Below, piece after piece: positions 1,109-42,798 of a stretch of 51,099 bases of DNA (its first letter is position 1; each line of letters opens with the position of its first letter). Source of the DNA: a phage; sequence record NC_129764.1, one strand, 5' to 3'. Under the pieces are notes generated by a model, which saw only the letters and a list, made by a program, of their open reading frames with translations, did not search any database and was not told where the DNA came from. The position numbers and the translations under genes are program-made.

Positions 1109-1348
1109 ATGAGCAAAATTAAGCATGACGACCTGAAAGGTGTATTAATGCAACTCAATCCAGGTCAAGCATTCCAACTTAACCCCGAGACGTTCGGATT
1201 CAATGGGAGCTATCGCACAACATTTGAGTTCATCCGGTATGTAAAGAGGGAGTTAGGAATTGATGTTATTCAAGCTGGGCTTATTAATGGCATTCAAACA
1301 TTCATATTTAAGCCAAGCGAGATTCGTTGCCTCACTCTGATGAAATAG
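1109..1348 (+). CDS. hypothetical protein (79 aa)
   Basis: ORF with RBS ggagaaataatcATG; stop TAG lies inside the dyad motif. Confidence 0.55.
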   Translation: MSKIKHDDLKGVLMQLNPGQAFQLNPETFGFNGSYRTTFEFIRYVKRELGIDVIQAGLINGIQTFIFKPSEIRCLTLMK

Positions 1349-1364
1349 CACTTTTTGTTAAAGC
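1344..1364 (+). promoter_or_regulatory. dyad motif copy AATAGCACTTTTTGTTAAAGC
   Basis: Sequence match; intergenic. Confidence 0.6.
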
Positions 1365-1420
1365 CCGGTCGAGCGGATCGGGTATTATCTTTTCATCGAC
1401 ACGATACAGAGGAAACGAAG

Positions 1421-1615
1421 ATGGAAACGCAAATTGATGCGGTTGTTGTTCAGCGCGACTCAACTCACGAAAAGGGTCTATTCAAGAAAGGAACCGAAAT
1501 CACGATCGACCTTGAGGATATGGTTGCATATCACTCGGGCCTTACCTGGAACGTGGTGCGCGTAGGCAGCGACTACAAACTCAAAGGCTTTAACACTTAC
1601 TTTGCGGAGGTTTAA
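1421..1615 (+). CDS. hypothetical protein (64 aa)
   Basis: ATG with RBS gaggaaacgaagATG; the track ORF at 1355 begins at TTG inside the motif. Confidence 0.5.
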   Translation: METQIDAVVVQRDSTHEKGLFKKGTEITIDLEDMVAYHSGLTWNVVRVGSDYKLKGFNTYFAEV

Positions 1616-1617
1616 TC

Positions 1618-2088
1618 ATGGCGACAATTACCGTATTCCTGGCTAAAGATGAGATTGACGATGAAATGTCATTCTTCGCATTCGAGCACAAAACCGGATC
1701 GCACTGGCACACTTACAGCCATTACACGGTTATCCCAATCGAAGCGTACGACGGCGAACTGCTCACTGATAAACTTAGTAATTTCATTGAAGATGTTAAT
1801 GCTAGCGGTGGCTGCGAGTGGAAAGAAGATCACGAAGTTATTCGAATGCTTGAGATGGTCAACCCGGTCCGTCTTGAGTCGTTCGAGCTTGATGCTGATG
1901 TGTCTATTAAGGTGAGAAAGTCTGGTGAGTTATTGCCAGGGATGCGCGTGCTGACTGGTTACTCGGGCCGTAAAGTGTGGCGCACTGTGTCGAAGGTTCG
2001 CCAGCGTTCAGAAACATGCTACAGCATATTCTTTGAGGATGGCTGGAATGTGATGGCTGGTAGCGAAGTAAAATATCTCACCAAATAG
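1618..2088 (+). CDS. hypothetical protein (156 aa)
   Basis: ORF; stop TAG is part of the motif at 2084. Confidence 0.6.
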   Translation: MATITVFLAKDEIDDEMSFFAFEHKTGSHWHTYSHYTVIPIEAYDGELLTDKLSNFIEDVNASGGCEWKEDHEVIRMLEMVNPVRLESFELDADVSIKVRKSGELLPGMRVLTGYSGRKVWRTVSKVRQRSETCYSIFFEDGWNVMAGSEVKYLTK

Positions 2089-2104
2089 CACGAATTGTTA
2101 AAAC
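2084..2104 (+). promoter_or_regulatory. dyad motif copy AATAGCACGAATTGTTAAAAC
   Basis: Sequence match; followed by hairpin ggggta-N12-tacccc containing TGATATAGT. Confidence 0.65.
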
Positions 2105-2166
2105 CGGATCGGGGTATCTTGATATAGTTACCCCATCGAAAAGAGATACCAATCAGAGGATTCACC

Positions 2167-2397
2167 ATGTCAATCGTCAAGAACCAACAAGCCATCGACT
2201 CAACCAATAACAACCGCTTTGCTATCTTCATCACGTCGATAGGTCGTCGCTTTGCAGTCAAGGCCGTGCCGGGCGGGTGCAAAACCTACATGGAGGATAA
2301 CGGGAAGTGGGTGTGGTGCGAAAACTTGGCAAACTTCCTGGTATGGAATGCAGACCTTCAGGGATTCGACGATATCAGCACTTTAATTGAGGAATAA
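2167..2397 (+). CDS. hypothetical protein (76 aa)
   Basis: ORF with RBS context accaatcagaggattcaccATG. Confidence 0.55.
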   Translation: MSIVKNQQAIDSTNNNRFAIFITSIGRRFAVKAVPGGCKTYMEDNGKWVWCENLANFLVWNADLQGFDDISTLIEE

Positions 2398-2403
2398 ATA
2401 ATT

Positions 2404-2631
2404 ATGCCACGTTACAATAAGCAGACTAAACTAACCCGCGTAAACGGGTGCACGATTCCGGCAGAATCCACTCACTACGCTATGGGCGCAAAGCACGGAG
2501 TCTATTTCAAGTGGCGCGGTCAATGGAACTTCACGGCGGTGAGTAATTTCTACATGCGCGTCCCAGGTGAAGACCCGCAATCGGTAGTCGAGAACTCAAT
2601 CGGAAACAACAAGATCGAGGTGCTAAAATGA
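2404..2631 (+). CDS. hypothetical protein (75 aa)
   Basis: ORF, RBS gaggaataaataattATG. Confidence 0.55.
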   Translation: MPRYNKQTKLTRVNGCTIPAESTHYAMGAKHGVYFKWRGQWNFTAVSNFYMRVPGEDPQSVVENSIGNNKIEVLK

Positions 2632-2738
2632 ACTTCAATACAATAGCGCTATGGTCTGCCGTCTGGTTCTTCTGCATGGGTCACACCATTGTTGGGATCG
2701 TAATAATGTTGTTACTTTGTGCAGGAGCGTTCGAATGA
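2628..2738 (+). CDS. small hydrophobic peptide (36 aa), putative membrane peptide
   Basis: ATGA overlap with upstream stop; hydrophobic translation MNFNTIALWSAVWFFCMGHTIVGIVIMLLLCAGAFE; below track size cutoff. Confidence 0.3.
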   Translation: MNFNTIALWSAVWFFCMGHTIVGIVIMLLLCAGAFE

Positions 2739-2908
2739 TGCGCATTCTGATTTGCATGATGGCGGCGGTCGCCCTGGCTATCCTGGTAGTGTCCGGCTGC
2801 GGCGAGGTCAAAGAGCGATGCCATGAAACTGGGAACCAGGTTACTACTTTCGTGATGGTTGGTAACGTATTGCTACCAATCACATCAAATGAAATCACTT
2901 GCGAATAG
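2735..2908 (+). CDS. small putative lipoprotein (57 aa)
   Basis: ATGA overlap start; N-terminal signal-like segment with lipobox-like VVSGC. Confidence 0.45.
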   Translation: MMRILICMMAAVALAILVVSGCGEVKERCHETGNQVTTFVMVGNVLLPITSNEITCE

Positions 2909-2917
2909 GATGTTAAA

Positions 2918-3109
2918 ATGGCTGATTTTATGCACCAAATGATTGCAGTATTCAAAGGCAGCGATGACCAGGAGGTGAAAGAGTGCTTTACTGTCGATAA
3001 GCCTTATAACGCATCGCTAACCAGCTTCGGGAATATCTCATTGCTTGATGATAATGGCGACCCCTGGATATTCGACGAAGATACTGATTGCTTCGAAATT
3101 AAAGAATAG
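2918..3109 (+). CDS. small acidic protein (63 aa)
   Basis: ORF, RBS ggatgttaaaATG; stop TAG in motif. Confidence 0.5.
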   Translation: MADFMHQMIAVFKGSDDQEVKECFTVDKPYNASLTSFGNISLLDDNGDPWIFDEDTDCFEIKE

Positions 3110-3125
3110 CACTTTTTGTTAAAAC
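3105..3125 (+). promoter_or_regulatory. dyad motif copy AATAGCACTTTTTGTTAAAAC
   Basis: Sequence match; downstream hairpin ggggtt-N-aacccc with TATAGT. Confidence 0.65.
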
Positions 3126-3180
3126 TAAATATAGGGGTTGCGCTATAGTAACCCCATCGACAACGAACGAGGACGATAGC

Positions 3181-3669
3181 ATGAAAATCAAATTACTTTG
3201 CACTGGCGGTTACAAGGGCTTTACCCGAGATCTGGAAGCAGACCCTATCGTGGTTGATGCGGTGAAGTGTGATTCCAGTACCGGAGGCTACCGCGTTAAG
3301 GTTGACGATCTGGTTAAAGCTGGCGTGTACGATCTGGACTATGGACTTTCGGTTAGCCCTGTATTTGGTCCGGCTGACTTTAACGAGAATGACGGAACGA
3401 TGTTCTTCTTCGAATGGGAAGTCCAAGCAAATCCTAAGCCGCGCAAGGTTCGACTTCTCAGTAATGGCGGCTACCCGCTGCGACAAGGCTATGAGAACCG
3501 CACATTCCCAGTTATCGTGGACTTTGAAGAAATTACTAGCAATCTGGCATACGTTAACGATGAGCAGTTGCGAGCCGTTGGATTTGTCGGCGGGATGAAT
3601 AAAGAGCCGCTATGCTTCTTCCATTGTAAAGCCGAGCCGTTCGATATTGAGTGCGAGTTAGTATACTAA
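3181..3669 (+). CDS. hypothetical protein (162 aa)
   Basis: ORF, RBS gaggacgatagcATG. Confidence 0.6.
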   Translation: MKIKLLCTGGYKGFTRDLEADPIVVDAVKCDSSTGGYRVKVDDLVKAGVYDLDYGLSVSPVFGPADFNENDGTMFFFEWEVQANPKPRKVRLLSNGGYPLRQGYENRTFPVIVDFEEITSNLAYVNDEQLRAVGFVGGMNKEPLCFFHCKAEPFDIECELVY

Positions 3670-3686
3670 GCACGAATTGTTAAAAT
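3666..3686 (+). promoter_or_regulatory. dyad motif variant CTAAGCACGAATTGTTAAAAT
   Basis: Sequence match; followed 22 nt later by TGGTATAAT. Confidence 0.6.
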
Positions 3687-3740
3687 GGGATTTGTCCTGA
3701 CTGGTATAATCCCCACATCAACCACTAATAGGAAAGCATC

Positions 3741-4226
3741 ATGTTAAAATTAAAAGATATTCAGTTCCCTGTAGTATTTACCACTATTAGCTGCGGTAAA
3801 ATAACCTGCCACAGCAAAGATCGCGCAACAGATTCATCATTCAATGAGTGCCACCCGTCTATTGTTGGTAATCTTATTGAGCTTCATAACAATCACAATC
3901 CTGATAACATCCCATCTCTTCCATATTATGTTGAGGGGGTCGGGCCTGGTTGGAAGGTTGGTCGCTCCATCTTCCATGCAGCAAAGCCAGAAATCAAGCC
4001 AGCGCTACAATGCACTCAGATCGAGAACATGCCATTGAGCGCGACACTAAAAGGTGTCCAACTTGATAGCGAATCTTGGATCGATATTACCGCCACGCCT
4101 AAAACTATTGAGGTACACGATGATGTGGTGATTCTCCTATTGCATTACGGCAGCTTTAAGCACAAAACGGTATCAGGTGAAATAAGCATTAAGCGCGGAA
4201 CGCTTGTACGCTATGAGGTGAAATAA
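3741..4226 (+). CDS. hypothetical protein (161 aa)
   Basis: ORF, RBS taggaaagcatcATG. Confidence 0.6.
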   Translation: MLKLKDIQFPVVFTTISCGKITCHSKDRATDSSFNECHPSIVGNLIELHNNHNPDNIPSLPYYVEGVGPGWKVGRSIFHAAKPEIKPALQCTQIENMPLSATLKGVQLDSESWIDITATPKTIEVHDDVVILLLHYGSFKHKTVSGEISIKRGTLVRYEVK

Positions 4227-4375
4227 TGACTGCATGGGTTTTGATTATCTTAATGAGTACCGGGCCAGATCACGTATACATGGAAAGCCAACAATCATGC
4301 AACAAGGCACGGGAAGTTATCGCAGAAAATAAGCCGTTCGGATATGAAGTAAAAACTATGTGTGTTAAACGATAG
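4226..4375 (+). CDS. small protein (49 aa)
   Basis: TAATG overlap with upstream stop; hydrophobic N-terminus; stop TAG in motif; below track cutoff. Confidence 0.3.
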   Translation: MTAWVLIILMSTGPDHVYMESQQSCNKAREVIAENKPFGYEVKTMCVKR

Positions 4376-4390
4376 CACGAATTGCTAAAC
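4372..4390 (+). promoter_or_regulatory. dyad motif copy ATAGCACGAATTGCTAAAC
   Basis: Sequence match; downstream hairpin aaggcca-tttgatatag-tggcctt. Confidence 0.65.
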
Positions 4391-4455
4391 CTTCCGCAAG
4401 GCCATTTGATATAGTGGCCTTATTGAAGCAGAGCAACCAATCAGAGGAATCGGCT

Positions 4456-4662
4456 ATGGCTACACGACTAACTCAGTGGCAGATTTACGACAAGGCCTCA
4501 CGCCTTCGTGAATCGCTTCGCGGACTGACGCCGAATGACCGAATGGAGATTATCGGGCACGCATTGCACGAACTAACATCTCAGGACGTAATCTATCATT
4601 CATGCGGCAATAAATTCTGGAACGTGACATTCGAGGTAAAGAAAGATGAGCAAGCGTCATAA
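4456..4662 (+). CDS. hypothetical protein (68 aa)
   Basis: ATG with RBS context aaccaatcagaggaatcggctATG. Confidence 0.5.
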   Translation: MATRLTQWQIYDKASRLRESLRGLTPNDRMEIIGHALHELTSQDVIYHSCGNKFWNVTFEVKKDEQAS

Positions 4663-4933
4663 GTTAAAAATCGCCCCGGTCCATTTCATCGGTGTAATGA
4701 ACGGAACTAAAACGGCTGAGTTCCGCATCAATGACCGCAACTTCCAGCTTGGCGATATCCTGGAGCTATGCGAGTTCGATCGTGGAGAGTTTACCGGATT
4801 GGAAGCGCACGCCAGGGTGTCAGATGTTACCGACGTGACGCCGTACATCAATCGCGGATATGATGAGCAAGAATGCGACTTCACGCAGTACGTCATGTTA
4901 TCAATCAAGGTGTACAGGCTGGTGAAGCCATAA
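4646..4933 (+). CDS. DUF3850/ASCH-like small protein (95 aa)
   Basis: Translation HKLKIAPVHFIGVMNGTKTAEFRINDRNFQLGDILEL resembles the DUF3850 (ASCH-like) signature from memory. Confidence 0.5.
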   Translation: MSKRHKLKIAPVHFIGVMNGTKTAEFRINDRNFQLGDILELCEFDRGEFTGLEAHARVSDVTDVTPYINRGYDEQECDFTQYVMLSIKVYRLVKP

Positions 4934-5023
4934 AAATATATCTTCCATCGAATCGTGGATGGTGTTAAATTTAACGACGTAATTGAAGCAATCAACCAAC
5001 TACATAATAAAGAGGTAAAAACT

Positions 5024-5398
5024 ATGAAATTCGAATGTATCAGTGATAACACAAAAAAATTTACCGTCGGCAAAATTTACGACGTTCCCTCTGAGCACGC
5101 TAAGCACACGGCTGTAATTACCGACGATACAGGCCGCAACCGCATTGCAACCGTAACGCACAACGGCGAGGGTCTTCGCTGGAACAGCGGCGGCACCAAG
5201 TTCGCAACGTTCGGCAAGAAGCGCAAGCGAGCTTTCCGCGTCAATGGCAAGATCAACACCAGCAAGATTAGCAACGTCAAGCCTATTAATGTTGACCGCA
5301 AGCCAGCACTGAAGTTTGAAGAGAAAGCGGATTTGTCTGGCCTAGCTATCGCTCTTGTTCTCCTGGTCGCTTCGATTTCGCTGATGTTCATCATGTAA
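5024..5398 (+). CDS. hypothetical protein with C-terminal transmembrane anchor (124 aa)
   Basis: ATG with RBS aagaggtaaaaactATG; C-terminal LSGLAIALVLLVASISLMFIM. Confidence 0.5.
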   Translation: MKFECISDNTKKFTVGKIYDVPSEHAKHTAVITDDTGRNRIATVTHNGEGLRWNSGGTKFATFGKKRKRAFRVNGKINTSKISNVKPINVDRKPALKFEEKADLSGLAIALVLLVASISLMFIM

Positions 5399-5405
5399 TT
5401 TTAAC

Positions 5406-5439
5406 GGGGAATCGGCTCTGAGCGGTTCCCCTTTCTTTT
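5406..5439 (+). terminator. putative intrinsic terminator or attenuator
   Basis: ggggaa-N14-ttcccc stem followed by tttcttttg. Confidence 0.35.
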
Positions 5440-5546
5440 GGAGAAAACACTATGCCAGACTTTTCCAACTGGAATAACGAGCCGCCATCATTTCAGGAGT
5501 TGCTATTCTGCCTCCTGGTCCTGACATTATCTCTTAAGGGTGTTTT

Positions 5547-5765
5547 ATGGCTACTATCATGACAGCAGAAGATGCAGCGCGTGACGCAGTGGAAGGAATG
5601 CGCCCAAATACCTCCAGAATCGCACACTACTACAAATCTGAGGTGTCGGCAGTGCAATTGGTCCACGAAATTTTAAGGCTCCCACAAGTCGATTCAGCGC
5701 GCGTGGTGACGTGCTTAAAAAATTATTTTTGCATCACTATTAAAACGAATAGCACGAATTGCTAA
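5547..5765 (+). CDS. hypothetical protein (72 aa)
   Basis: ORF; overlaps an alternative 36-aa ORF at 5452-5562. Confidence 0.35.
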   Translation: MATIMTAEDAARDAVEGMRPNTSRIAHYYKSEVSAVQLVHEILRLPQVDSARVVTCLKNYFCITIKTNSTNC

Positions 5766-5768
5766 AAC
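5748..5768 (+). promoter_or_regulatory. dyad motif copy AATAGCACGAATTGCTAAAAC
   Basis: Sequence match; hairpin ggggaatgcgctatgattcccc downstream. Confidence 0.65.
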
Positions 5769-5822
5769 CTATCAAGGGGAATGCGCTATGATTCCCCTAC
5801 ACCAAAAAACGAGGGAACACTC

Positions 5823-6269
5823 ATGAAACATTTGATTTGCATTGAAACGCCTAACGATGAATACACCCTGCACGGCATCGGAATGTTCAAAGGTCACTAC
5901 ATGACAGCAAGTATTTATGATGCGCGTCGCGGCGATGGCGATCTGATGATTACCTCAAAAGAGGTTAATCCGTACATCATGCAGAATCTTGGAAATAACG
6001 AATATATGGCCTACGGCTGCAACGCGGTGTATAAGCATATCAAGATCCGCAAGCGTGTCGTGCGAGCATTCAAGAAAATTGCAATGAAACACTGGAAGAT
6101 GAGCAAGAAAGATGCCGGACATTGGGCGCGTAACGTTGCAGATTCATACTTCTACCGTAACGGCGAGTCATGCTACTTCCTGATCGATGAAATGATGGAA
6201 AATTATAGCGGCACATTCTGCCAAAGTGATTTTGACGCCTGGGCTGACTACGAGGTCGATTGCTGGTAA
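5823..6269 (+). CDS. hypothetical protein (148 aa)
   Basis: ATG with RBS gagggaacactcATG. Confidence 0.55.
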   Translation: MKHLICIETPNDEYTLHGIGMFKGHYMTASIYDARRGDGDLMITSKEVNPYIMQNLGNNEYMAYGCNAVYKHIKIRKRVVRAFKKIAMKHWKMSKKDAGHWARNVADSYFYRNGESCYFLIDEMMENYSGTFCQSDFDAWADYEVDCW

Positions 6270-6288
6270 TAGCACGAATTGCTAAAAC
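6268..6288 (+). promoter_or_regulatory. dyad motif copy AATAGCACGAATTGCTAAAAC
   Basis: Sequence match; hairpin aagggca-tttgttagaa-tgccctt. Confidence 0.65.
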
Positions 6289-6352
6289 TTGCTCAAGGGC
6301 ATTTGTTAGAATGCCCTTCGTTGAGTTAAGCAACCAATCAGAGGAATAAATC

Positions 6353-6886
6353 ATGGATAAAATCACAATTTGGGGCCAGACAATCAACCTGTTTCTCGGC
6401 ACGCGCCGAGTGGCAATCTTTGACTTTGACGGGACACTTAGCGATGGATCTGGTCGACTTCACCTGCTGCCAACAAAGGATTTGCACTTGACTGAAAGCT
6501 GGTCCGAGTTTAACCGCGCGGCAATATTTGACAACCCAATCCAGAGCACGATCGATGTGATGAACTCTATGTTTGCCGCTGGGTATCATGTGATCATTTT
6601 AACCGGGAGAAGTGATGAGGTGCGTTACGCATCTGAGTTATGGCTTAAGCATCACGGCGCTCGATATGATTACTTAGTCATGCGACCGCATACCGACAAC
6701 CGAAAAGACACGGTAATGAAAGAAGAGGCAGTGCGCGCGATCGGCATTGAGAACATTCTGGCGGCATGGGATGACTCACCGCAAATTATTCCATTATTCC
6801 GGTCGCTTGGAATAACCACTTACGCTGTAGTTGACTATGGCGATAAAGTTCACGAACATTTAAAATCTCACGGGGTAGATGAATGA
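6353..6886 (+). CDS. HAD-superfamily phosphatase (177 aa)
   Basis: HAD motif I FDFDGTL, motif II-like ILTGR, C-terminal acidic DD motif. Confidence 0.65.
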   Translation: MDKITIWGQTINLFLGTRRVAIFDFDGTLSDGSGRLHLLPTKDLHLTESWSEFNRAAIFDNPIQSTIDVMNSMFAAGYHVIILTGRSDEVRYASELWLKHHGARYDYLVMRPHTDNRKDTVMKEEAVRAIGIENILAAWDDSPQIIPLFRSLGITTYAVVDYGDKVHEHLKSHGVDE

Positions 6887-6994
6887 ACCTGTACGAATTT
6901 ATTTCAGCACATCCGGTATTAACGGTTATCATCCTGTTAATCATCAATCACACTATCATCAATGTGGCAAAATTATTTTTAGGGAGATGCTAAC

Positions 6995-7567
6995 ATGAAA
7001 ACAGCTATCATTTTAAACGGCGCGCCGGGCGCAGGCAAAGACACTATCGGATGCATCCTGGCCGACACTTACGATCACGTAGCGCTACGCAGCTTCAAGG
7101 CGCCAATGTTTGAGATTGCCCGAGCAATATTGGGTGAGACTAATTTCGAATACTTCATGTTCTTGTATGAGGACCGTCGATATAAAGAAGAGCCAGCATC
7201 AATCCTGAACGGTAAAAGCCCGCGCCAGTTTATGATCTGGATTAGCGAGGAGGTCATCAAGCCGCAGTTCGGAAATCGCTTCTTCGGTATGCGAGCGGAA
7301 AGCAAGGTGAAAGAGTCTCACTCCCTTTCGGTATTTACTGACGGTGGATTCAAAGACGAGATCTTGCAGATGATTGAAGGTGATATCCAGGTAAAGCTAT
7401 GTCGAATCCATCGCAACGGTTGCAACTTTGACAACGACAGCCGCGACTATATCTATCTTGACGATATGATCGGGGTCAACGGTTATCAGGAATGTGACTT
7501 CTTTTCTGTCGAAGGCCATCCAGAAATTACCGCCCAGCACATAGCCGCCACGTTCATCAACAAATAG
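6995..7567 (+). CDS. P-loop kinase (190 aa), possibly polynucleotide or nucleotide kinase
   Basis: Walker A GAPGAGKDT at N-terminus. Confidence 0.6.
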   Translation: MKTAIILNGAPGAGKDTIGCILADTYDHVALRSFKAPMFEIARAILGETNFEYFMFLYEDRRYKEEPASILNGKSPRQFMIWISEEVIKPQFGNRFFGMRAESKVKESHSLSVFTDGGFKDEILQMIEGDIQVKLCRIHRNGCNFDNDSRDYIYLDDMIGVNGYQECDFFSVEGHPEITAQHIAATFINK

Positions 7568-7583
7568 CACGAATTGCTAAAAC
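7563..7583 (+). promoter_or_regulatory. dyad motif copy AATAGCACGAATTGCTAAAAC
   Basis: Sequence match; stop TAG embedded. Confidence 0.65.
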
Positions 7584-7639
7584 GTCGGTGGGGTGATTTG
7601 ATATAGTTACCTCATCGACAACGAAGAGAGAAAATCGAA

Positions 7640-7849
7640 ATGATGGTATCAACTGATAAGTTTTTCACTTGCACTAAAACTTCTGAAGTATTCGAACTGG
7701 TTCATACTGATAATGGTGACTTCATGCATGACGGTTGCGATGTTTTCATTGAAGTGAAAGAAAGCGACTATGACGATGGGGTTTATTATAACCCGGCAGT
7801 GAACACTCAGTTTTTTACCCCGATCGAAGATGAGGGAGAAGAAGCATGA
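7640..7849 (+). CDS. hypothetical acidic protein (69 aa)
   Basis: ORF downstream of motif and leader catcgacaacgaagagag. Confidence 0.5.
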   Translation: MMVSTDKFFTCTKTSEVFELVHTDNGDFMHDGCDVFIEVKESDYDDGVYYNPAVNTQFFTPIEDEGEEA

Positions 7850-8190
7850 TCACGATTAACCTGTCAGATAAACAAGCGCGTGAAATCCTCGACACTATCG
7901 GCGAACAGCTTCACGTAAAAGGCGCTACCGCTGAGATTCTTAACCAGATCGAAAGACAACTTACCCCAGCATCAACCAACCAAGCGGAGTTTGCAGCCTG
8001 GAAAAGTGAGCGAATCCTGCCAAATATCATCAAGGCATGGAAGCGCAAGCATAAAAAAGAAATCAATGTTGAGGATTTATTTTCCGATGAATTAAGTCCT
8101 TCAAAGGTTGCTCAATACCAGTTGCGATACATGGAATCAGTTTGCAAACAGGTTTTAGGTGTTAACGTTTCATTTGGGAGAGGTAAATAA
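7846..8190 (+). CDS. hypothetical protein (114 aa)
   Basis: ATGA overlap with upstream gene. Confidence 0.55.
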   Translation: MITINLSDKQAREILDTIGEQLHVKGATAEILNQIERQLTPASTNQAEFAAWKSERILPNIIKAWKRKHKKEINVEDLFSDELSPSKVAQYQLRYMESVCKQVLGVNVSFGRGK

Positions 8191-8420
8191 TGTTCGGTTT
8201 AAGCGAAGTGGAGTGGAATGTTGTAAAGCGTGCCGCGAAGGAATTGAATAAATTCGTTAGCGGAATGAAGAAAGAAGATCGCAAAAACGAAAAGATTATG
8301 ATTGATGTGATCTCAACTCATCACAAAAAGGTTGAGCTACTCATTGACCGATACAAGTTTGTATGGACCGCCGGATATATTGCAGGGCGCGTAGGTAATA
8401 AAGAGTGGGATTACGAATAA
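8190..8420 (+). CDS. hypothetical protein (76 aa)
   Basis: ORF, RBS gggagaggtaaataATG. Confidence 0.5.
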   Translation: MFGLSEVEWNVVKRAAKELNKFVSGMKKEDRKNEKIMIDVISTHHKKVELLIDRYKFVWTAGYIAGRVGNKEWDYE

Positions 8421-8623
8421 TGGCTAACTTACCGAAGAAAGGCGATCAGGTTCGATGCATTACATCACGCAATAGTGATGCTTTCTCAGCGGGATGCTTG
8501 TATGACGTTGAAAAAGTAAGTAAAGCAAAGAGACTCGTATTTGTATACGGAGACGATGGAAACATTCATGAGATTGATTACCCGCAGGATATGACTAAGG
8601 GACAATTCGAAATTAATGATTGA
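8420..8623 (+). CDS. hypothetical protein (67 aa)
   Basis: TAATG overlap start (MANLPKKG); the track start at 8405 is GTG. Confidence 0.5.
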   Translation: MANLPKKGDQVRCITSRNSDAFSAGCLYDVEKVSKAKRLVFVYGDDGNIHEIDYPQDMTKGQFEIND

Positions 8624-9376: not shown

Positions 9377-9393
9377 TGCCTGCAATATGCTAA

Positions 9394-9413
9394 AATAGCA
9401 CTAAATGTTAAAC
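9394..9413 (+). promoter_or_regulatory. dyad motif variant AATAGCACTAAATGTTAAAC
   Basis: Sequence match upstream of packaging genes. Confidence 0.55.
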
Positions 9414-9428
9414 AAAGAGGATTGATTT

Positions 9429-30755: not shown

Positions 30756-31282
30756 TTGTATGCCCTCGTCGTTAGTGTGTTTGAATTGTATGTCGCATTT
30801 ACTTTTATTGCAATAGTTCGATTACAATTTTTTTCGCGTAACAGGTGTCTATTTTTGTAACTGGAAGTGGTGTTACAAAATCGACCTCATTCGACCGCAG
30901 GTAGATATGATAAAAACTCTATATAATATATATAGATAGATAATATTTAATTTTAGCTTTATATATATAATTATTGCTGTGTAACAGTTGTCTATCATGT
31001 AACAGGTGATTTGATTGATTCGTCAAATTTCTATCATATATGTTCAAAATTTAATCAATCTTGGTTCTATTCATGGATATCTGTGTATTTATAAGAAAAA
31101 GCGGTTACAAGTGTTACACAATATACACCACATAAAATCAGTGTTAATCTATTGATTCCATTGATGCTGGTTGTAACTTGAGCGATATAGACACACGATT
31201 ACACACCAATTACATGTATTCGATTGACTAAACGCTGTTAATGGCTATAATGAATTCATCGTAAACGAAGGAGATAAACGAA
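30756..31282. promoter_or_regulatory. AT-rich divergent control region with GTAACA/GTTACA repeats and TATAGATAATA tracts
   Basis: No ORF; AT tract 30900-30980; repeats gtaacag/gttacaa; GTGGTGTTACAAAAT at 30868-30881 matches 169-181. Confidence 0.55.
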
Positions 31283-32347
31283 ATGTTCCAGGTATTCACA
31301 TCAAACCAGCTTTCTAATGACGAGTATCATAGCAATGAAGGTTGGGCGGCAGAGTATGTAAGCGGATCGAGCCTTGCAGAAATTTATCAGACCTGCCCGG
31401 CTAACTGGCGATTCAAGAAAAACGAGACAACGAAAGCGCTGGAGTTCGGTACTCAGTCTCATACCAACTTCGAGAGTCGCGATCTGTTTACTGCAACTTA
31501 TGCTCGTTGTCCGGCTCCGTCAGAGTTTAAAGATCTCATTACTTCGCAAGCCGCTCTGGCATCGAAATTAAAATCATTCGGCCTGAAAGGTACATCCGGT
31601 AAGCAGTACCCCGATCTCATCAAAATGATGGTTGATTGTGGTGAGGAACTAAACGTTCAATACCTGATTGAACTGATCGCAGAAGCTGAGGCGCGCGCTG
31701 AAGGAAAGAAACTCGTTGACGCTGACAAATACGATGCATGCATGAAAATGAGAGCCATTCTTGAGCAAAACCCGGATCATGAAGCGTGCATCAACAGTGA
31801 AACGGCGCAGCGTGAGATTTCAATCTTCGGTGAGATATCCGGCGTCAAAGTTAAGGTTCGACTCGATCATCTTGACTACAAAGAGAATGTCCCGGGTCGT
31901 GTGCTGACTGGTTATGATGAGAATGGCGATCCGGTTTATGAAGACGTAATTTTCCCGGAAGCGCTGATTATAACTGACTTCAAAACCACGATGAGCGCCA
32001 ACCCGTTAGAGTTCCCGAGACTGGCATACAATCACGGGTATTATCTGAAAATGGCCTTGCAGCATGACCTGCTACGACGCGCAATCCAGGCTGGCGCTTT
32101 TGAGGGTAACTTCCCGGAAGATATCCCGATCGTAGTTCGATTGCTGGCTCAGGAGAAAAAAGAGCCTTACATCGCACTTGCTTACCGTATGACTATGGAG
32201 CAAATCAGGATCGGTCGTAGCCAGTATGTTAGCGTAGTCCACACTTACAAGGCTTGCTCTGAAATGGATGTTTGGCCTGGGTACGCTGGCGACGCAAGCG
32301 AGATTGAACTTGAAACGCCATCATGGGTGCGTTACCAAAATAAGTAA
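31283..32347 (+). CDS. putative recombination exonuclease (PD-(D/E)XK-like, 354 aa)
   Basis: Position upstream of Erf and SSB; D-x-K-like segment ITDFKTT. Confidence 0.5.
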   Translation: MFQVFTSNQLSNDEYHSNEGWAAEYVSGSSLAEIYQTCPANWRFKKNETTKALEFGTQSHTNFESRDLFTATYARCPAPSEFKDLITSQAALASKLKSFGLKGTSGKQYPDLIKMMVDCGEELNVQYLIELIAEAEARAEGKKLVDADKYDACMKMRAILEQNPDHEACINSETAQREISIFGEISGVKVKVRLDHLDYKENVPGRVLTGYDENGDPVYEDVIFPEALIITDFKTTMSANPLEFPRLAYNHGYYLKMALQHDLLRRAIQAGAFEGNFPEDIPIVVRLLAQEKKEPYIALAYRMTMEQIRIGRSQYVSVVHTYKACSEMDVWPGYAGDASEIELETPSWVRYQNK

Positions 32348-32421
32348 ACGGCACAAATAGCTAAACAAATAATTAATGAGGTGTTATAATGCACCTCATA
32401 CACCAATCAGGAGAAGTTAAG

Positions 32422-33069
32422 ATGCAATTATCACCAGAAACAAACGAAATTCTTCCCGCACTGTTCAATGCTCGCAACAAATTTGCTAAAGCAAAGAAGG
32501 ACGCAAAAAACAATCACCTGAAAAATTCATACGCAACCCTTGATGCAATGATGGCGGCCGTTAGCCCGGCGCTCACCGATAACGATATTATGATCCTGCA
32601 ATCAATGCTTGACACCAGCACGGAAACAACCTTCCATCTTGAAACGATGCTGATTCACAAATCCGGGCAATGGGCCAAGTTCTTCATGATGATGCCTATT
32701 GCAAAGCGCGATCCTCAAGGTGTAGGTTCAGCGATGACGTATGCTCGGCGTTACTCATTAGCCGCAGCGCTGGGGATTAGCCAGAGTGATGACGATGCTC
32801 AACTTGCAGTGAAATCTGTCAAGGACTGGAAAAAAGAACTTGATGCGTGCGAAGATATCGAATCACTGAAAGAGGTATGGGCTAACGCTTACCGACAGAC
32901 GGACACGGCAAGCAAGTCAATCATTCAGGATCACTACAACGCACTTAAGGCTAAGTTTGAGATCGGTAAAGCTCGCGGCATTCGCCCGGCGCAACCGGAA
33001 CAGAAAAAACAGGTTGAAGCAACGAGCGCGAAGCCTGTACAATCTCAATCAATCACCAACTTCGAATAA
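32422..33069 (+). CDS. erf: Erf-like single-strand annealing protein (215 aa)
   Basis: ERF-family-like sequence (AMTYARRYSLAAALGI); RBS context caatcaggagaagttaagATG. Confidence 0.6.
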   Translation: MQLSPETNEILPALFNARNKFAKAKKDAKNNHLKNSYATLDAMMAAVSPALTDNDIMILQSMLDTSTETTFHLETMLIHKSGQWAKFFMMMPIAKRDPQGVGSAMTYARRYSLAAALGISQSDDDAQLAVKSVKDWKKELDACEDIESLKEVWANAYRQTDTASKSIIQDHYNALKAKFEIGKARGIRPAQPEQKKQVEATSAKPVQSQSITNFE

Positions 33070-33115
33070 TCATCAGGGCGGCTTCGGTCGCCCATAAATT
33101 TTAGGAGAGAAAATT

Positions 33116-33538
33116 ATGCATATTATAACTGGCGAGATCCGAAAAGAACCTAAGATTCTGGAACGTAACGGCGGCAATACTTACATCATCGAACTGGCAG
33201 AAAGCTACAAGCCTCGTGATGGGGATCGCGAATACACCAACTACACATTCTTTTTCAGCGACGGTGGAAAGCCCGGCCTTGCTGACTGGTATCGTGATGC
33301 GTTCCAGGTTGGTCGAGTCATTTCAGTATCGTGCGAAACGTTGAAGATCTCATCCCGTGAGCACAACGGAACTGTTTACAATTCATTGCAGGCGGCTGAC
33401 TTCCCCAAACTTGTTTTCAGTCAACGAGGTCAAGGTAATCAGCAACAACGAGCGCTGAATCAACAGCAACGCACTCAACAGCAATCACAACCAAAACCAA
33501 ATCCTCAGTCAACTTTCGACGACGATATTCCGTTTTAA
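33116..33538 (+). CDS. ssb: single-stranded DNA-binding protein (140 aa)
   Basis: C-terminal acidic tail DDDIPF preceded by Gln-rich linker. Confidence 0.8.
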   Translation: MHIITGEIRKEPKILERNGGNTYIIELAESYKPRDGDREYTNYTFFFSDGGKPGLADWYRDAFQVGRVISVSCETLKISSREHNGTVYNSLQAADFPKLVFSQRGQGNQQQRALNQQQRTQQQSQPKPNPQSTFDDDIPF

Positions 33539-33540
33539 TA

Positions 33541-33575
33541 AGAAAGCCCCGCATTGCGGGGCTTTCTTTTATTCT
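33541..33575. terminator. bidirectional intrinsic terminator
   Basis: aaagccccgcattgcggggcttt stem with flanking T-run. Confidence 0.7.
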
Positions 33576-36731: not shown

Positions 36732-36788
36732 TTCCAGATCTCCAAATAAAAAACGCGTAGAAGGATGTTAACCCGCTACGCGTCGTTT

Positions 36789-36809
36789 GTTTTAACTAAA
36801 AATGCTATT
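36789..36809 (-). promoter_or_regulatory. dyad motif variant (minus strand AATAGCATTTTTAGTTAAAAC)
   Basis: Sequence match; encodes the C-terminal NSIFS-stop of the upstream gene; followed on minus strand by hairpin acgcgtag/ctacgcgt plus T-run. Confidence 0.55.
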
Positions 36810-37244
36810 GGTCGTTCCGATATCTTCCTTCTTCACAACCCGCATGAATTTCTTGTTCTTGCATCGCTTCTCAAGGCACTTTCCGTTACCATCAAACTTG
36901 AGGTCGAATCTCAGCCATGCTGCGCGGTATCCTTTACACCCCTGTCGGCGGTAAGCGCGATGTGCAGCCTCAGCGCCTTGCCACGAAATCATGTTGCGTT
37001 CTTTCCAGCCTTGCACCGTCTGATTCGTTACTTTTAGTGCCTTTGCGCAGGCCGCAGGGCCACCATAATATTCGATAAGCGCATCAAGTCGTGCTCGCAA
37101 TCCGGCGCGTGTTTCTTCCTTATGAATATAGAACCCGCAGCGCTGTCGTGGCTTTTTGTCTTTACCGCGTCGAGTTCCGTTGTTACCATTGATGTGACGT
37201 TTATCGATTTCACCAGTTGACTCCGCGATGCGTTGAATACTCAT
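36792..37244 (-). CDS. putative DNA-binding protein with Cro/YdaS-like HTH (150 aa)
   Basis: ATG with RBS aggagaattaagATG; segment GGPAACAKALKVTNQTVQGWKERNMISWQGA resembles Cro/YdaS-type HTH. Confidence 0.5.
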   Translation of the reverse strand: MSIQRIAESTGEIDKRHINGNNGTRRGKDKKPRQRCGFYIHKEETRAGLRARLDALIEYYGGPAACAKALKVTNQTVQGWKERNMISWQGAEAAHRAYRRQGCKGYRAAWLRFDLKFDGNGKCLEKRCKNKKFMRVVKKEDIGTTNSIFS

Positions 37245-37256
37245 CTTAATTCTCCT

Positions 37257-37277
37257 ATAGCACTTTTTGCTAAAAAC
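37257..37277 (+). promoter_or_regulatory. dyad motif copy ATAGCACTTTTTGCTAAAAAC
   Basis: Sequence match at the divergent junction between the HTH gene and helicase. Confidence 0.6.
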
Positions 37278-37338
37278 GTTTACTGTATGCCGTGTATTAT
37301 ATCGTAAACGATACAACGATTCAAAGGATTAAATAGCC

Positions 37339-39357: not shown

Positions 39358-39770
39358 TTACAGACAAAGGCGATTACTTAGAGTTTTACGAGCGAGATCC
39401 TAGCGACACGAGAAAGGAGGACGCTCATCAAGTAGATTGCGTATCCTGGTTGAAATACAATTTTCCTCAGCTTCTATTTTGGCACACAGTTAATGAAGGT
39501 GAAAAAACAATAACGTCGGCGCTAAGGGATGAACAGTCTGGATTACTCAAAGGTGTGTCAGACTTTGTTATTCTGATTGGTATAAACTCACGCTACCCGT
39601 TTGCAGCTATCGAACTAAAGAGGGTTAATAAGTCCGGCAAAGGAAAGGCATCACCAGTCAGCGATAAGCAAAGGGAGTTTCTCAAAAAGGTTCGTGATCG
39701 CGGAGGATTCTCTGCCGTCGCATACGGATTTGAGCAATTCAAGCTGGCAATATACGATTTAACGAAATAG
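39354..39770 (+). CDS. VRR-NUC domain nuclease (138 aa)
   Basis: GVSDFVIL ... AIELKR ... SDKQREFL pattern typical of VRR-NUC. Confidence 0.6.
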   Translation: MITDKGDYLEFYERDPSDTRKEDAHQVDCVSWLKYNFPQLLFWHTVNEGEKTITSALRDEQSGLLKGVSDFVILIGINSRYPFAAIELKRVNKSGKGKASPVSDKQREFLKKVRDRGGFSAVAYGFEQFKLAIYDLTK

Positions 39771-39786
39771 CACTTTTTGTTAAAAC
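39766..39786 (+). promoter_or_regulatory. dyad motif copy AATAGCACTTTTTGTTAAAAC
   Basis: Sequence match; stop TAG embedded; hairpin tgccggaatggaatctggca downstream. Confidence 0.65.
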
Positions 39787-39837
39787 TGCCGGAATGGAAT
39801 CTGGCATTATTATCTCACCGAAACGAGAGGATTAAAA

Positions 39838-40799: not shown

Positions 40800-40809
40800 T
40801 TGCTAAAAC
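40791..40809 (+). promoter_or_regulatory. dyad motif variant CAGCACTAATTGCTAAAAC
   Basis: Sequence match; hairpin acccggcgaaagtcgggt followed by TATAGT. Confidence 0.55.
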
Positions 40810-40865
40810 TACCCGGCGAAAGTCGGGTATAGTTATTTCATCAAAACGAAATGAGGAATAAGAAT

Positions 40866-42787: not shown

Positions 42788-42798
42788 TCGCAAAAAAC
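42778..42798 (+). promoter_or_regulatory. degenerate dyad motif ATCGCACTAATCGCAAAAAAC
   Basis: About 14 of 21 positions match; followed by hairpin cccgaagggattcggg and TATATT. Confidence 0.3.

What the first reader, a model, noticed from the sequence alone, without database searches (positions are those of the whole stretch)
1344..8623. Stop codons embedded in the dyad motif: modular gene-cassette boundaries
In many cassettes the upstream gene's stop codon is the TAG (or TAA) inside AATAGCAC (for example 1346-1348, 2086-2088, 3107-3109, 3667-3669, 7565-7567, 23808-23810, 39768-39770). At 36789-36809 the motif even encodes the last five residues of a protein. Each small early gene is thus bounded by the same about 80-bp unit. 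Such identical boundaries would be efficient sites for homologous recombination, letting related phages swap individual early genes, and may explain the mosaic of small unrelated ORFs.
Basis: inference. Interest (0 to 1): 0.45.

Follow-up and report, generated by a model that had tools for sequence, protein, structure and literature searches.

The report
Promoter cassettes bounding T1-phage early genes
A 21-base motif repeated about 25 times in this T1-like phage genome is the front end of a compact promoter-plus-hairpin cassette that heads each block of early genes, overlaps the stop codon of the gene before it, and has served as a crossover point where related phages gained, lost or swapped gene blocks.

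Summary
The window is a whole T1-like (Tunavirus) genome. AATAGCAC occurs 20 times against 1.6 expected. All eight upstream genes in 1344-8623 end inside or against the motif. Across 94 upstream gene families in 72 related loci, 60% stop at the motif's TAG.

The motif is the published 21-nt repeat of phage TLS (aaATAGCACnnnTTGnTAAAA), whose function is listed as an open question. Here it sits at -52..-31 of an extended -10 promoter. The gap after TTGYTA is a fixed 22 bp, there is no usable -35 box, a G+C-rich hairpin of variable sequence surrounds the -10 box, and a leader with ribosome-binding site follows.

The recombination idea is partly supported. Fourteen of 107 indels among relatives are exact motif-to-motif events with the crossover inside the 21-mer. 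One two-gene cassette, bounded exactly by two motifs, is 86-89% identical in distant phages and lies on the other early arm. Breakpoints are about 4-6 times enriched in cassettes. However, most lie at other gene junctions, and only about a third of early-gene junctions carry the unit.

The closest analogue is the PeSL cassette of T4-like phages. What reads the motif is unknown. A conserved Cro-fold regulator is my candidate; this is inferred, not shown.

The parts
1343..1420 (+). Cassette 1. Motif 1343-1364; hairpin in the spacer; -10 TATTAT 1383-1388; predicted start near 1395; ATG 1421. The upstream gene stops at TAG 1346-1348.
   Evidence: the hairpin is also flagged as terminator-like
2083..2166 (+). 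Cassette 2. Motif 2083-2104; hairpin GGGGTA..TACCCC around TGaTATAGT (2123-2128); ATG 2167. The upstream stop is TAG 2086-2088.
   Evidence: L005 carries a 308-bp insertion exactly at this motif
3104..3180 (+). Cassette 3. Motif 3104-3125; -10 TATAGT 3144-3149; ATG 3181. The upstream stop is TAG 3107-3109.
   Evidence: it is the right end of the 1362-3105 motif-to-motif indel against L013
3665..3740 (+). Cassette 4 (variant ctAAGCAC). -10 TGgTATAAT 3705-3710; ATG 3741. The upstream stop is TAA 3667-3669.
4370..4455 (+). Cassette 5. -10 TGaTATAGT 4410-4415; ATG 4456. The upstream stop is TAG 4373-4375.
   Evidence: it is the right end of the 146-bp indel 4225-4372
5747..5822 (+). Cassette 6. 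-10 TATGAT 5787-5792; ATG 5823. The upstream ORF 5547..5765 stops at the TAA inside TTGCTAAAA.
6267..6352 (+). Cassette 7. -10 TGtTAGAAT 6307-6312; ATG 6353 (polynucleotide kinase). The upstream stop is TAA 6267-6269, followed in frame by the motif's TAG.
   Evidence: the gene between cassettes 6 and 7 is replaced in a relative, with breakpoints at +79 and +81 in the two leaders
7562..7639 (+). Cassette 8. -10 TGaTATAGT 7602-7607; ATG 7640. The upstream stop is TAG 7565-7567.
9393..9428 (+). Motif copy without hairpin or -10 box. It lies directly before the ribosome-binding site and ATG 9429 of the small terminase gene, after terminator 9353-9370.
44479..51016 (-). Left early arm. Eight minus-strand cassettes whose motif's first A lies at 51014, 49942, 49478, 48856, 47740, 47221, 46721 and 44559, each about 70-81 nt before a start codon.
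   Evidence: motif-to-motif indels 48857-49925 and 48878-49462; mobile cassette 49459-49944
37255..37338 (+). Cassette of the helicase gene (GTG 37339). Its motif lies in the 5' untranslated region of the divergent regulator gene, and the two -10 boxes overlap.
36732..36810 (-). Cassette of the primase gene. The motif encodes the last five residues and the stop of the regulator; the hairpin is followed by a T run; -10 TAACAT.
39765..42850 (+). Three further plus-strand cassettes whose motif's first A lies at 39767, 40790 and 42778, ahead of middle genes. The degenerate copy at 32348 ahead of the erf gene lies outside this span.
36792..37244 (-). A 150-aa Cro-fold helix-turn-helix regulator, the candidate motif-binding protein. 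It is driven by a canonical promoter, TTGAAT-17-TATAAT, at 37324-37296.
31224..33541 (+). Canonical promoter TTGACT-16-TATAAT followed by RecE-like exonuclease, Erf annealing protein and SSB. This is the likely recombination machinery. Gene ends were placed by synteny with SH6 gp51-53 and are approximate.

Best explanation
The repeated unit is a composite regulatory cassette of T1-like phages. It has four parts:
- A near-invariant 21-22-bp element, aAATAGCAC-N3-TTGYTAAAAc. This is the 'direct repeat' reported in phage TLS.
- An extended -10 promoter, (T)GnTAtaaT, exactly 22 bp after TTGYTA, with a CA start 7 bp further on. This places the element at -52..-31, and there is no usable -35 box.
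- A G+C-rich hairpin whose sequence varies but whose pairing is kept. It wraps around the -10 box or lies just before it. By analogy with PeSLs it probably attenuates or terminates incoming transcription.
- A semi-conserved leader with the ribosome-binding site.

The cassette heads each early or middle transcription unit. Genes are packed tightly, so the preceding gene nearly always ends in the first bases of the element, usually at its TAG.

The element, and less often the leader, is the longest sequence shared by otherwise unrelated gene blocks. Short-homology recombination has used it as a crossover point; I infer this is carried out by the phage's own RecE/Erf system. Blocks of the form [spacer-promoter-leader-genes-stop] have therefore been deleted, inserted, moved between the two early arms and exchanged between distant T1-like phages. 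This is one route to the mosaic, not the only one.

Shown from sequence: the anatomy, the fixed spacing, the stop-codon overlap and the in-motif crossovers. Inferred: promoter activity, terminator activity, and the recombination enzymes.
For: Anatomy:
- In 234 diverged instances the motif carries about 2 bits per position. A TAnnnT hexamer lies at +38 in 183 of them, and within 1 bp of that in 20 more. G at -14 occurs in 82%. C-1 and A+1 each occur in about 73%.
- Start codons lie 70-84 nt downstream of the motif.
- Canonical sigma-70 promoters in 1-10 kb are no more frequent than chance: 19 found against 20.4 expected.
- Hairpin: mean folding energy is -11.6 kcal/mol, against -5.3 for shuffles and -6.1 for random genomic 39-mers. 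The GenBank record of phage SA30RD annotates the same hairpins as predicted rho-independent terminators.

Stop codons.

Distribution: every one of 72 Drexlerviridae loci carries the motif. Multi-copy occurrences are found only on contigs of 46-53 kb.

Recombination:
- 14 motif-to-motif and 2 leader-to-leader indels.
- The same-triplet bias among joined copies (p = 0.02).
- The transferred cassette bounded by two motifs.
- Cassettes of families 82, 108, 45 and 81-80 occur on either arm in different genera.
- Breakpoint enrichment.
- RecE-like, Erf and SSB genes are present.

Literature: the TLS repeat and PeSL cassettes with the same layout and an experimentally shown role.
Against: - No transcription start site, promoter activity or terminator activity has been measured for any T1-like phage in the literature I could search.
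- The hairpins that enclose the -10 box are followed by CATCGAAAC rather than a T run, so they are poor intrinsic terminators on paper.
- About 63% of indel boundaries lie outside cassettes.
- The excess at motif junctions vanishes within 20 bp of the stop codon.
- The family-level synteny test is not significant (p = 0.13).
- Related genomes share events by descent, so the pooled percentages are not independent counts.
- Alignments extend through any shared motif. A boundary 'at the motif' therefore shows that the unit of exchange ends there, not by itself that the strand exchange happened there. Only the chimeric-motif cases locate the crossover.
Confidence: 0.65

Rival explanations
1. Selection only. 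The motif is purely a transcription signal. Gene blocks are gained and lost by illegitimate recombination anywhere. Only products that keep genes and promoters intact survive, so boundaries appear to fall at cassettes without the motif acting as a recombination substrate.
For: - Most indel boundaries lie at ordinary gene junctions with 3-6 bp of overlap.
- There is no significant excess within 20 bp of the stop or at family level.
- Because the stop codon is embedded in the motif and the 22-bp spacing is fixed, any viable deletion of a whole unit must be in register.
Against: - 14 of the 19 indels flanked by at least 15 bp of direct repeat are motif-to-motif.
- Single-site genomes carry chimeric motifs.
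- Joined copies share the central triplet more often than background (10/14 against 41%, p = 0.02).
- A transferred cassette has identity ending exactly at both motifs.
- The phage encodes RecE-like and Erf proteins.
Confidence: 0.2
2. The 21-mer is an operator for a repressor (the 'stoperator' idea of the TLS authors) and is not needed for promoter activity. The promoters are simple extended -10 promoters, and the factor shuts early transcription off or blocks read-through.
For: - The motif has an inner palindrome, TAGCA-N5-TGYTA.
- Copies also lie downstream of, or inside, sigma-70-type promoters of the regulator, tail-fibre and major-head genes, and against ribosome-binding sites of late genes. 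At those positions a bound protein would block transcription.
- The only annotated regulator has a Cro fold.
Against: - A repressor site does not need a spacing to the -10 box fixed to the base pair across a variable spacer (183/234 at exactly +38).
- A repressor site does not need a single orientation relative to transcription in the arms.
- Without the element these promoters would have no upstream recognition at all.
Confidence: 0.2
3. The motif is read directly by unmodified host RNA polymerase as an unusual upstream element, through alpha C-terminal domains and/or sigma region 4 on TTGYTA. No phage factor is involved, so these are true immediate-early promoters.
For: - Nearly all early genes on both arms depend on these cassettes, and no canonical promoters exceed chance there. 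Something must fire on naked injected DNA.
- TTGYTA resembles a -35 hexamer.
- A/T runs flank the G/C positions.
Against: - A 22-bp gap is outside the 15-21-bp range known to work for sigma-70 (established knowledge).
- The invariant G and C positions argue for base-specific major-groove reading rather than an A/T-tract UP element. The A/T pattern is also shifted 8-9 bp from the UP consensus position (my comparison from memory).
- Of 118 exact genomic matches, only 1 has TAnnnT at +38, so hosts do not appear to use this promoter type.
Confidence: 0.2
4. The motif works at the RNA level. In read-through transcripts UAGCA-N5-UGYUA forms a 5-bp hairpin that contains the stop codon. This hairpin is a site for processing, translation control or an RNA-binding protein, such as the early DUF3850 protein.
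For: - Position 13 is C or T and almost never A or G. Both C and U pair with G3 in RNA.
- The stem is the same in both orientations, which would fit the reversed copies next to ribosome-binding sites.
- A DUF3850 protein, annotated as RNA-binding in SH6, is encoded at 4646-4933.
Against: - An RNA signal gives no reason for the exact 22-bp distance to a -10-like hexamer and CA start.
- In the promoter context the motif lies upstream of the predicted start, so it is absent from the cassette's own transcript.
- The stem is only 5 bp, and its positions do not vary, so there is no covariation evidence.
Confidence: 0.07

Closest known systems
21-nt intergenic direct repeat of phage TLS and other T1-like phages (aaATAGCACnnnTTGnTAAAA; PMC11447400, 2024)
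   Same: It is the same element: same consensus, same orientation with transcription, the same distance of about 76 nt to start codons, and the same T/G/A classes of the central triplet.
   Different: The paper treats it as a repeat of unknown function and lists that function as an open question. It does not report the fixed 22-bp link to an extended -10 box, the hairpin, the embedded stop codons, the second (non-promoter) context or any role in recombination.
PeSL (promoter-early stem-loop) cassettes of T4-like phages RB49/phi1 (PMC2839356, PMC4122927)
   Same: - Same layout: upstream stop codon, upstream promoter region, GGGG..CCCC stem-loop between or over the promoter boxes, Shine-Dalgarno sequence, ATG.
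- Both are concentrated among small orphan early genes.
- In both, indels between relatives are flanked by copies.
- The proposed role, as portable homology for modular shuffling, is the same.
   Different: - PeSLs have a canonical sigma-70 promoter with -35 and -10 boxes and an A/T-rich upstream region. Here there is no -35 box at 16-18 bp; a G/C-containing 21-mer lies 22 bp from the -10 box.
- The conserved homology here is much shorter: about 21 bp, against conservation spread over about 100 bp.
- Promoter activity, terminator activity and mini-circles were shown experimentally for PeSLs. None has been shown here.
- The phage family and the recombination system differ.
Activator-dependent (class II type) promoters, such as CRP at -41.5 or phage Mu Mor/C-dependent middle and late promoters (from memory, not tested here)
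   Same: A dyad-containing site centred near -42 that replaces the -35 box, combined with a good -10 box. A small phage-encoded helix-turn-helix protein is available as a candidate.
   Different: - No binding or activation has been shown.
- The half-site spacing (5-N5-5) and sequence match none of the CRP, FNR or Mor sites I could recall.
- The candidate protein has a Cro fold, not a Mor/C fold.
Stoperators of mycobacteriophage L5 (cited by the TLS authors)
   Same: Many copies of one short site are spread through the genome, mostly in one orientation relative to transcription. Some lie inside transcribed leaders.
   Different: Stoperators lie within transcription units and are not tied to a -10 box at a fixed distance. 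L5 is temperate and its site binds the immunity repressor, whereas T1-like phages are virulent.
Morons of lambdoid phages
   Same: Single genes or small gene blocks carrying their own promoter and terminator are inserted between older genes.
   Different: Morons have no conserved flanking sequence and are thought to arrive by illegitimate recombination (as contrasted).

Membership tests
TLS-type 21-nt direct repeat of T1-like phages | Consensus aaATAGCACnnnTTGnTAAAA | tested here: met
   Window consensus is AATAGCACtttTTGcTAAAac over 27 copies. The same consensus holds in 234 diverged instances.
TLS-type 21-nt direct repeat of T1-like phages | Intergenic, oriented with transcription, about 76 nt upstream of a start codon | tested here: met
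   Plus-strand copies lie in the right arm and minus-strand copies in the left arm. Start codons lie at +70..+84 in most instances.
TLS-type 21-nt direct repeat of T1-like phages | Central triplet falls into T, G(AA) and A classes | tested here: met
   TTT, GAA and TAA/AAA classes are present in the window. Positions 7-9 are bimodal.
PeSL cassettes (T4-like phages) | Strong sigma-70-type promoter with -35 and -10 boxes at canonical spacing and an A/T-rich upstream region | tested here: not met
   A -10 box is present, but the only -35-like hexamer (TTGYTA) lies 22 bp away. Positions -35..-30 read AAAACn. The canonical promoter scan finds no more than chance.
PeSL cassettes (T4-like phages) | Stable G/C-rich stem-loop between or overlapping the promoter boxes | tested here: met
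   Mean folding energy is -11.6 kcal/mol against -5.3 for shuffles. The commonest stem pairs -24..-16 with -9..-1.
PeSL cassettes (T4-like phages) | The unit runs from the upstream gene's stop codon to the Shine-Dalgarno sequence and ATG of the next gene | tested here: met
PeSL cassettes (T4-like phages) | Insertions, deletions and replacements between close relatives are flanked by copies | tested here: met
   14 motif-to-motif and 2 leader-to-leader indels out of 107. However, the majority of indels are not flanked by copies.
PeSL cassettes (T4-like phages) | Promoter and terminator activity shown in reporters; mini-circles formed during infection | not testable with these tools
   This needs wet experiments. 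Only predicted terminators in a GenBank record are available.
Extended -10 sigma-70 promoter | TGn immediately upstream of a TATAAT-like hexamer; start 6-8 bp downstream | tested here: met
   G at -14 in 193/234 and T at -15 in 96/234. Hexamer positions: T1 in 159, A2 in 205 and T6 in 196 of 234. C-1 in 170 and A+1 in 172 of 234. Activity itself was not tested.
Class II activator-dependent promoter | Activator site centred near -41.5 overlapping the -35 region; no functional -35 box | tested here: met
   The palindrome TAGCA-N5-TGYTA is centred at -42 given the -10 box position. This is geometry only.
Class II activator-dependent promoter | An identified activator binds the site and is required for transcription | not testable with these tools
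   The candidate Cro-fold regulator is conserved in the family, is driven by a canonical promoter and has a motif copy in its own leader. No binding data exist.
Sigma-54 promoter (TGGCAC-N5-TTGCW) | GG and GC doublets separated by exactly 10 bp | tested here: not met
   The motif reads AGCAC-N3-TTGC. The first doublet is AG (A2 in 231/234, G3 invariant) and the separation is 8 bp.
Integron-type gene cassettes | Site-specific recombinase (integrase) and attC-type recombination sites | tested here: not met
   No integrase appears in the annotated relative SH6. Only RecE-like/Erf general recombination genes are present.
Host transcription-factor regulon site | The same site is used at host chromosomal promoters | tested here: not met
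   The exact motif in 185,579 species' genomes gives scattered single hits. One of 118 has TAnnnT at +38. The Enterobacter-group hits are a single orthologous stretch that looks like coding sequence (not checked by translation). Degenerate host sites were not tested.

The most novel reading that the evidence does not exclude
The 21-mer is the DNA site of the family's conserved Cro-fold regulator.
- Made first from a canonical promoter, the regulator switches on about 20 promoters that lack a -35 box from position -42.
- It blocks its own promoter and late promoters wherever the site lies inside or downstream of them.
- Replication then titrates it out and releases late genes.
- The same site doubles as the linker through which promoter-plus-gene cassettes are exchanged by the phage's Erf/RecE system. 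This would amount to an integrase-free, promoter-borne cassette system spanning all Drexlerviridae.
Probability: 0.3. Interest if true: 0.75.

Novelty: new variant of a known kind. Interest (0 to 1): 0.55.

Why it matters
T1 is one of the original T phages, yet how it is transcribed is essentially unknown. The most recent genome paper on the family found almost no recognisable promoters and explicitly asked what the 21-base repeat does.

Reading the repeat as the upstream half of a non-canonical promoter makes that question directly testable. The evidence for this reading is the fixed 22-bp link to an extended -10 box and the absence of a -35 box. The test needs only one 5'-end mapping experiment and a few reporter and gel-shift assays. 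The reading also explains why promoter finders fail on these genomes.

The comparative data extend the PeSL idea, in which regulatory cassettes double as recombination linkers. That idea was previously documented only in T4-like myoviruses. It now reaches an unrelated siphovirus family with a different promoter type and a different recombination system. This suggests a general way in which virulent phages shuffle small accessory genes without integrases.

In practice, the cassettes are natural, portable insertion points for engineering T1-like phages.

Tried and rejected
- Canonical sigma-70 reading. TTGYTA as a -35 box fails because the gap is 22 bp in essentially all copies. No -35-like hexamer lies 16-18 bp upstream of the -10 box.
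- Sigma-54. The resemblance GCAC..TTGC is superficial: the first doublet is AG rather than GG, and the spacing is 2 bp short.
- Sigma-32. CCCCAT after the -10 box is simply the 3' arm of the hairpin and is absent from many copies.
- UP element, CRP, FNR, IHF and Fis. I compared consensus sequences from memory and found no convincing fit. The Lrp SELEX consensus matches the T-class copies at 13 of 15 positions but the GAA class poorly. This remains an untested lead.
- Host use of the motif. The genome-collection scan gave only scattered hits, plus one orthologous stretch that looks like coding sequence in Enterobacter-group species.
- Other phage families. Multi-copy hits occur only on T1-like-sized contigs.
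- Covariation between regulator and motif. Even regulators only 46-50% identical accompany an unchanged motif, so this test is uninformative.
- Synteny-successor test at family level. The result is not significant.
- 'Island' search for further transferred cassettes between distant loci. Only one clean case bounded by motifs at both ends was found.
- Literature. I found no transcription-start or transcriptome data for any T1-like phage. The Rtp genome paper is not held.
- My first BLAST chaining run failed because of file layout and was redone.

Full report
WHAT THE WINDOW IS. The 51,099-bp window is a complete genome of a T1-like siphovirus (Drexlerviridae, Tunavirus).
- Region 1000-9000 matches 331 phage records. 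The best matches are Shigella phage SH6, Escherichia phages LeonhardEuler and ADB-2, at about 90% identity.
- By synteny with the annotated SH6 genome, two arms of small, mostly unnamed early genes diverge from a point near position 100-500. The right arm is on the plus strand, about 530-9350. The left arm is on the minus strand, about 51000-44260.
- Late genes (terminase to tail) follow on the plus strand from 9429.
- A middle region (31-44 kb) holds recombination, replication and lysis genes.

THE OBSERVATION.
- AATAGCAC occurs 20 times against 1.6 expected.
- With the full pattern I count 27 copies, oriented with transcription in both arms.
In 1344-8623 all eight upstream genes end in or against the motif. 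Five end at its TAG, one at a TAA variant of it, one at the TAA inside TTGCTAAAA, and one at a TAA directly followed by the TAG.
- The statement about 36789-36809 holds on the minus strand. There the motif encodes ..NSIFS and the stop of a 150-aa regulator.
- The copy at 23806 is degenerate.
- The pattern is general. In 72 related loci fetched around the polynucleotide kinase (pnk) gene, 53% of 601 distinct instances stop at the TAG and about 87% stop within -4..+16.
- Counted once per upstream gene family, 56 of 94 use the TAG and 68 of 94 are in its frame, against 12 and 14 in the other frames (p = 1e-14).
- Two parts of the description need correcting. Only about 21-22 bp are near-invariant, not 80. 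The unit heads blocks of one to several genes, so only about a third of early-arm junctions carry it.

ANATOMY. I aligned 234 diverged instances without gaps.
- The element aAATAGCAC-N3-TTGYTAAAAc carries close to 2 bits at 14 positions.
- A TAtaaT hexamer follows exactly 22 bp after TTGYTA in 183 of 234 instances, and within 1 bp of that in 20 more.
- G at -14 is present in 82%, which marks an extended -10 promoter.
- CA lies 7 bp after the hexamer.
- The element therefore spans -52..-31. Its inner palindrome TAGCA-N5-TGYTA is centred at -42. Positions -35..-30 read AAAACn, so there is no -35 box.
- A standard promoter scan of 1-10 kb finds no more sites than chance. The TLS authors reported the same difficulty.
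- Between the element and the start lies an inverted repeat whose sequence differs from copy to copy but whose pairing is kept. Mean folding energy is -11.6 kcal/mol against -5.3 for shuffles. In about 60% of copies the stem (-24..-16 with -9..-1) encloses the TGnTA of the -10 box. In about 25% it lies in the spacer, and the -10 box and T-rich discriminator follow it like a terminator tail.
- The GenBank record of phage SA30RD annotates these hairpins as predicted rho-independent terminators.
- A semi-conserved leader (CATCGAAACGA.., ACCAATCAGAGGA) and a start codon at +70..+84 complete the unit.

WHAT IS KNOWN.
- The 21-mer is published. The 2024 TLS paper reports 18-21 copies of aaATAGCACnnnTTGnTAAAA about 76 nt upstream of start codons, and notes them in T1, Rtp and Rogue1. 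It offers stoperators, enhancer sites or UP elements as guesses, and lists the repeat's function among open questions.
- No other paper in the library mentions it.
- The layout closely parallels the PeSL cassettes of T4-like phages RB49 and phi1: stop codon, promoter, GGGG..CCCC stem-loop over the boxes, Shine-Dalgarno sequence, ATG. For PeSLs, promoter and terminator activity and recombination-generated mini-circles were shown experimentally.

TESTING THE RECOMBINATION IDEA. I compared the window's early arms with 72 related loci.
- Of 107 clustered indels, 14 are exact motif-to-motif events of 308-2060 bp with 17-39 bp of overlap. Two more join the conserved leaders. Examples in the window are 1362-3105, 48857-49925 and 48878-49462.
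- Junction alignments show that the sequence left of the 21-mer goes with the upstream gene. The spacer, -10 box and leader go with the downstream gene. The single-site genome carries a chimeric motif, so the crossover lies inside the 21-mer.
- Ten of the 14 events join copies with the same central triplet, against 41% for neighbouring pairs in general (binomial p = 0.02).
- The two-gene cassette at window 49459-49944 (left arm) is 86-89% identical over about 490 bp to L065 7787-8271 and L069 8008-8495. Those segments lie on the right arm of phages whose pnk is only 57% identical in protein. The similarity begins and ends at the flanking motifs.
- Across genera, gene order differs, and several motif-bounded cassettes (families 82, 108, 45 and 81-80) occur on either arm.
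- Quantitatively, 37% of indel boundaries fall in cassettes, which make up 5.8% of the sequence.
- In the window, 19 of 44 breakpoints fall in 11% of the arms (p = 5e-8). Ten of 14 motif junctions carry a breakpoint against 8 of 27 others (Fisher p = 0.013).

Against a strong version of the idea:
- Most boundaries lie at ordinary gene junctions with only a few bases of overlap.
- The excess disappears within 20 bp of the stop.
- A family-level synteny test is not significant (p = 0.13).
- The pooled counts are inflated by shared descent.

The phage encodes a RecE-like exonuclease, an Erf annealing protein and SSB. That these enzymes act on the motif is my inference.

WHAT READS THE MOTIF. This could not be settled.
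- The information content and invariant G/C positions point to base-specific recognition by a protein.
- The base-exact spacing to the -10 box across a variable spacer points to direct cooperation with RNA polymerase.
- Hosts do not appear to use the site. Exact matches in 185,579 species' genomes are scattered, and 1 of 118 has a -10-like hexamer at +38.
- Multi-copy occurrences are confined to T1-like-sized viral contigs.
- The regulator is one of very few genes with a canonical promoter, TTGAAT-17-TATAAT. Distant lineages have TTGAYA-18-GATGAT.
- A motif copy lies in its own leader, and that same copy is the upstream element of the divergent helicase promoter. This layout is typical of a regulator that activates a neighbour and represses itself.
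- Motif copies without a -10 box lie, in either orientation, inside or just downstream of sigma-70-type promoters of the tail-fibre and major-head genes. They also lie against the ribosome-binding sites of the small terminase gene and a tail gene. The tail-fibre arrangement is kept in lineages whose regulator is only 46-50% identical.
- All this fits one DNA-binding factor that activates from -42 and blocks elsewhere. It is circumstantial.
- Direct recognition by host polymerase, a pure repressor site and an RNA-level role remain open.

VERDICT.
- The unit is a promoter/hairpin cassette whose first bases double as the preceding gene's stop codon.
- The recombination interpretation is partly supported. 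Motif copies have demonstrably been crossover points and cassette boundaries, but they are one contributor to the mosaic rather than its explanation.
- The element itself is already known. The new points are the promoter architecture, the embedded stops, the in-motif crossovers, the second context and the candidate regulator. Together they make it a new variant of the PeSL kind in an unrelated phage family.

LIMITS.
- Nothing here measures transcription, termination, binding or recombination.
- Gene calls in the related loci are heuristic: ORFs of at least 40 codons with greedy overlap removal.
- BLAST end points are accurate to about 10 bp.
- Events were clustered by sequence, not placed on a phylogeny.

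Noticed in passing
window 37245-37340: Two promoters overlap back to back. The regulator's canonical promoter (TTGAAT 37324-37319, TATAAT 37301-37296, minus strand) shares its -10 region with the helicase cassette promoter (TATTAT 37295-37300, plus strand). The helicase motif (37257-37277) lies at about +12..+32 of the regulator transcript, 3 nt before its ribosome-binding site. This looks like a genetic switch with autoregulation.
   Followed up: partly
window 35714-35770 (minus-strand reading); L091 8195-8275; L090 11515-11585: The tail-fibre gene has a sigma-70-type promoter (TTGCAA-17-TAAAAT). A reversed motif copy lies between that promoter and the ribosome-binding site. Two distant lineages keep the same layout, TTGCCG-17-CATAAT ... 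CTTAACAATAAATGCTAT-GAGGTG.
   Followed up: partly
window 16095-16176: Upstream of the major-head gene, a reversed motif copy fills the spacer of TTGACG-16-TATTAT and supplies its extended -10 box (TGcTATTAT). A hairpin plus T run (16127-16153) then lies between this promoter and the gene. Read on the minus strand, the copy has only a weak -10 box (TATGAC).
   Followed up: no
window 19800-19900: A minus-strand motif copy (first A at 19885) with TGaTACGAT at the correct spacing points antisense into the late operon, toward a bidirectional terminator (GGGGGCGCAAGCCCCC, about 19806-19822). It could make a very short antisense RNA. On the plus strand the same copy abuts the leader AACCAATCAGGAG of the gene after the major tail protein.
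   Followed up: no
window 9353-9429: The small terminase gene is preceded by a strong terminator (9353-9370). A motif copy with no hairpin or -10 box follows and runs straight into the ribosome-binding site. This copy is conserved in Tunavirus loci. How late transcription gets past or starts here is unclear.
   Followed up: partly
regulator protein, window 36792-37244 (minus strand), residues 7-33: The most conserved part of the regulator family is not the helix-turn-helix. It is an N-terminal Gly/Asn/basic stretch (STGEIDKRxINGNNGTRRGKDKKxRKR, with 12 invariant positions) that AlphaFold leaves disordered (pLDDT around 50). It may be a DNA-contacting or polymerase-contacting arm.
   Followed up: no
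leaders of many cassettes, e.g. window 2147-2160, 4437-4450, 6334-6347, 50947-50960 (minus strand): A second shared block, (A)ACCAATCAGAGGA(AT), forms the leader and ribosome-binding site of many otherwise unrelated cassettes. It is the crossover region of two indels, and of deletions with 12-14 bp of overlap near 50631-50947.
   Followed up: partly
window 4933-4935: Most close relatives carry an extra 162-167 bp here, between the DUF3850 gene and the next gene, which the window lacks. The junction has only 3 bp of overlap and no motif.
   Followed up: no
L105, L125, L131, L153, L158, L161, L171 (Enterobacter, Leclercia, Silvania, Citrobacter chromosomes): The exact 19-mer ATAGCACTATTTGCTAAAA recurs at one orthologous chromosomal stretch in these genera. 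The stretch looks like coding sequence (not checked by translation). No -10 box follows, so I take it as coincidence rather than a host site.
   Followed up: partly
window 8620-8649 and 5406-5431: Inside the right arm there is one sigma-70-like site with TG (TTGACC-18-TAGTAT) in the 165-bp gap before ORF 8788. There is also one strong terminator-like hairpin (5406-5431) that is not part of a cassette.
   Followed up: no
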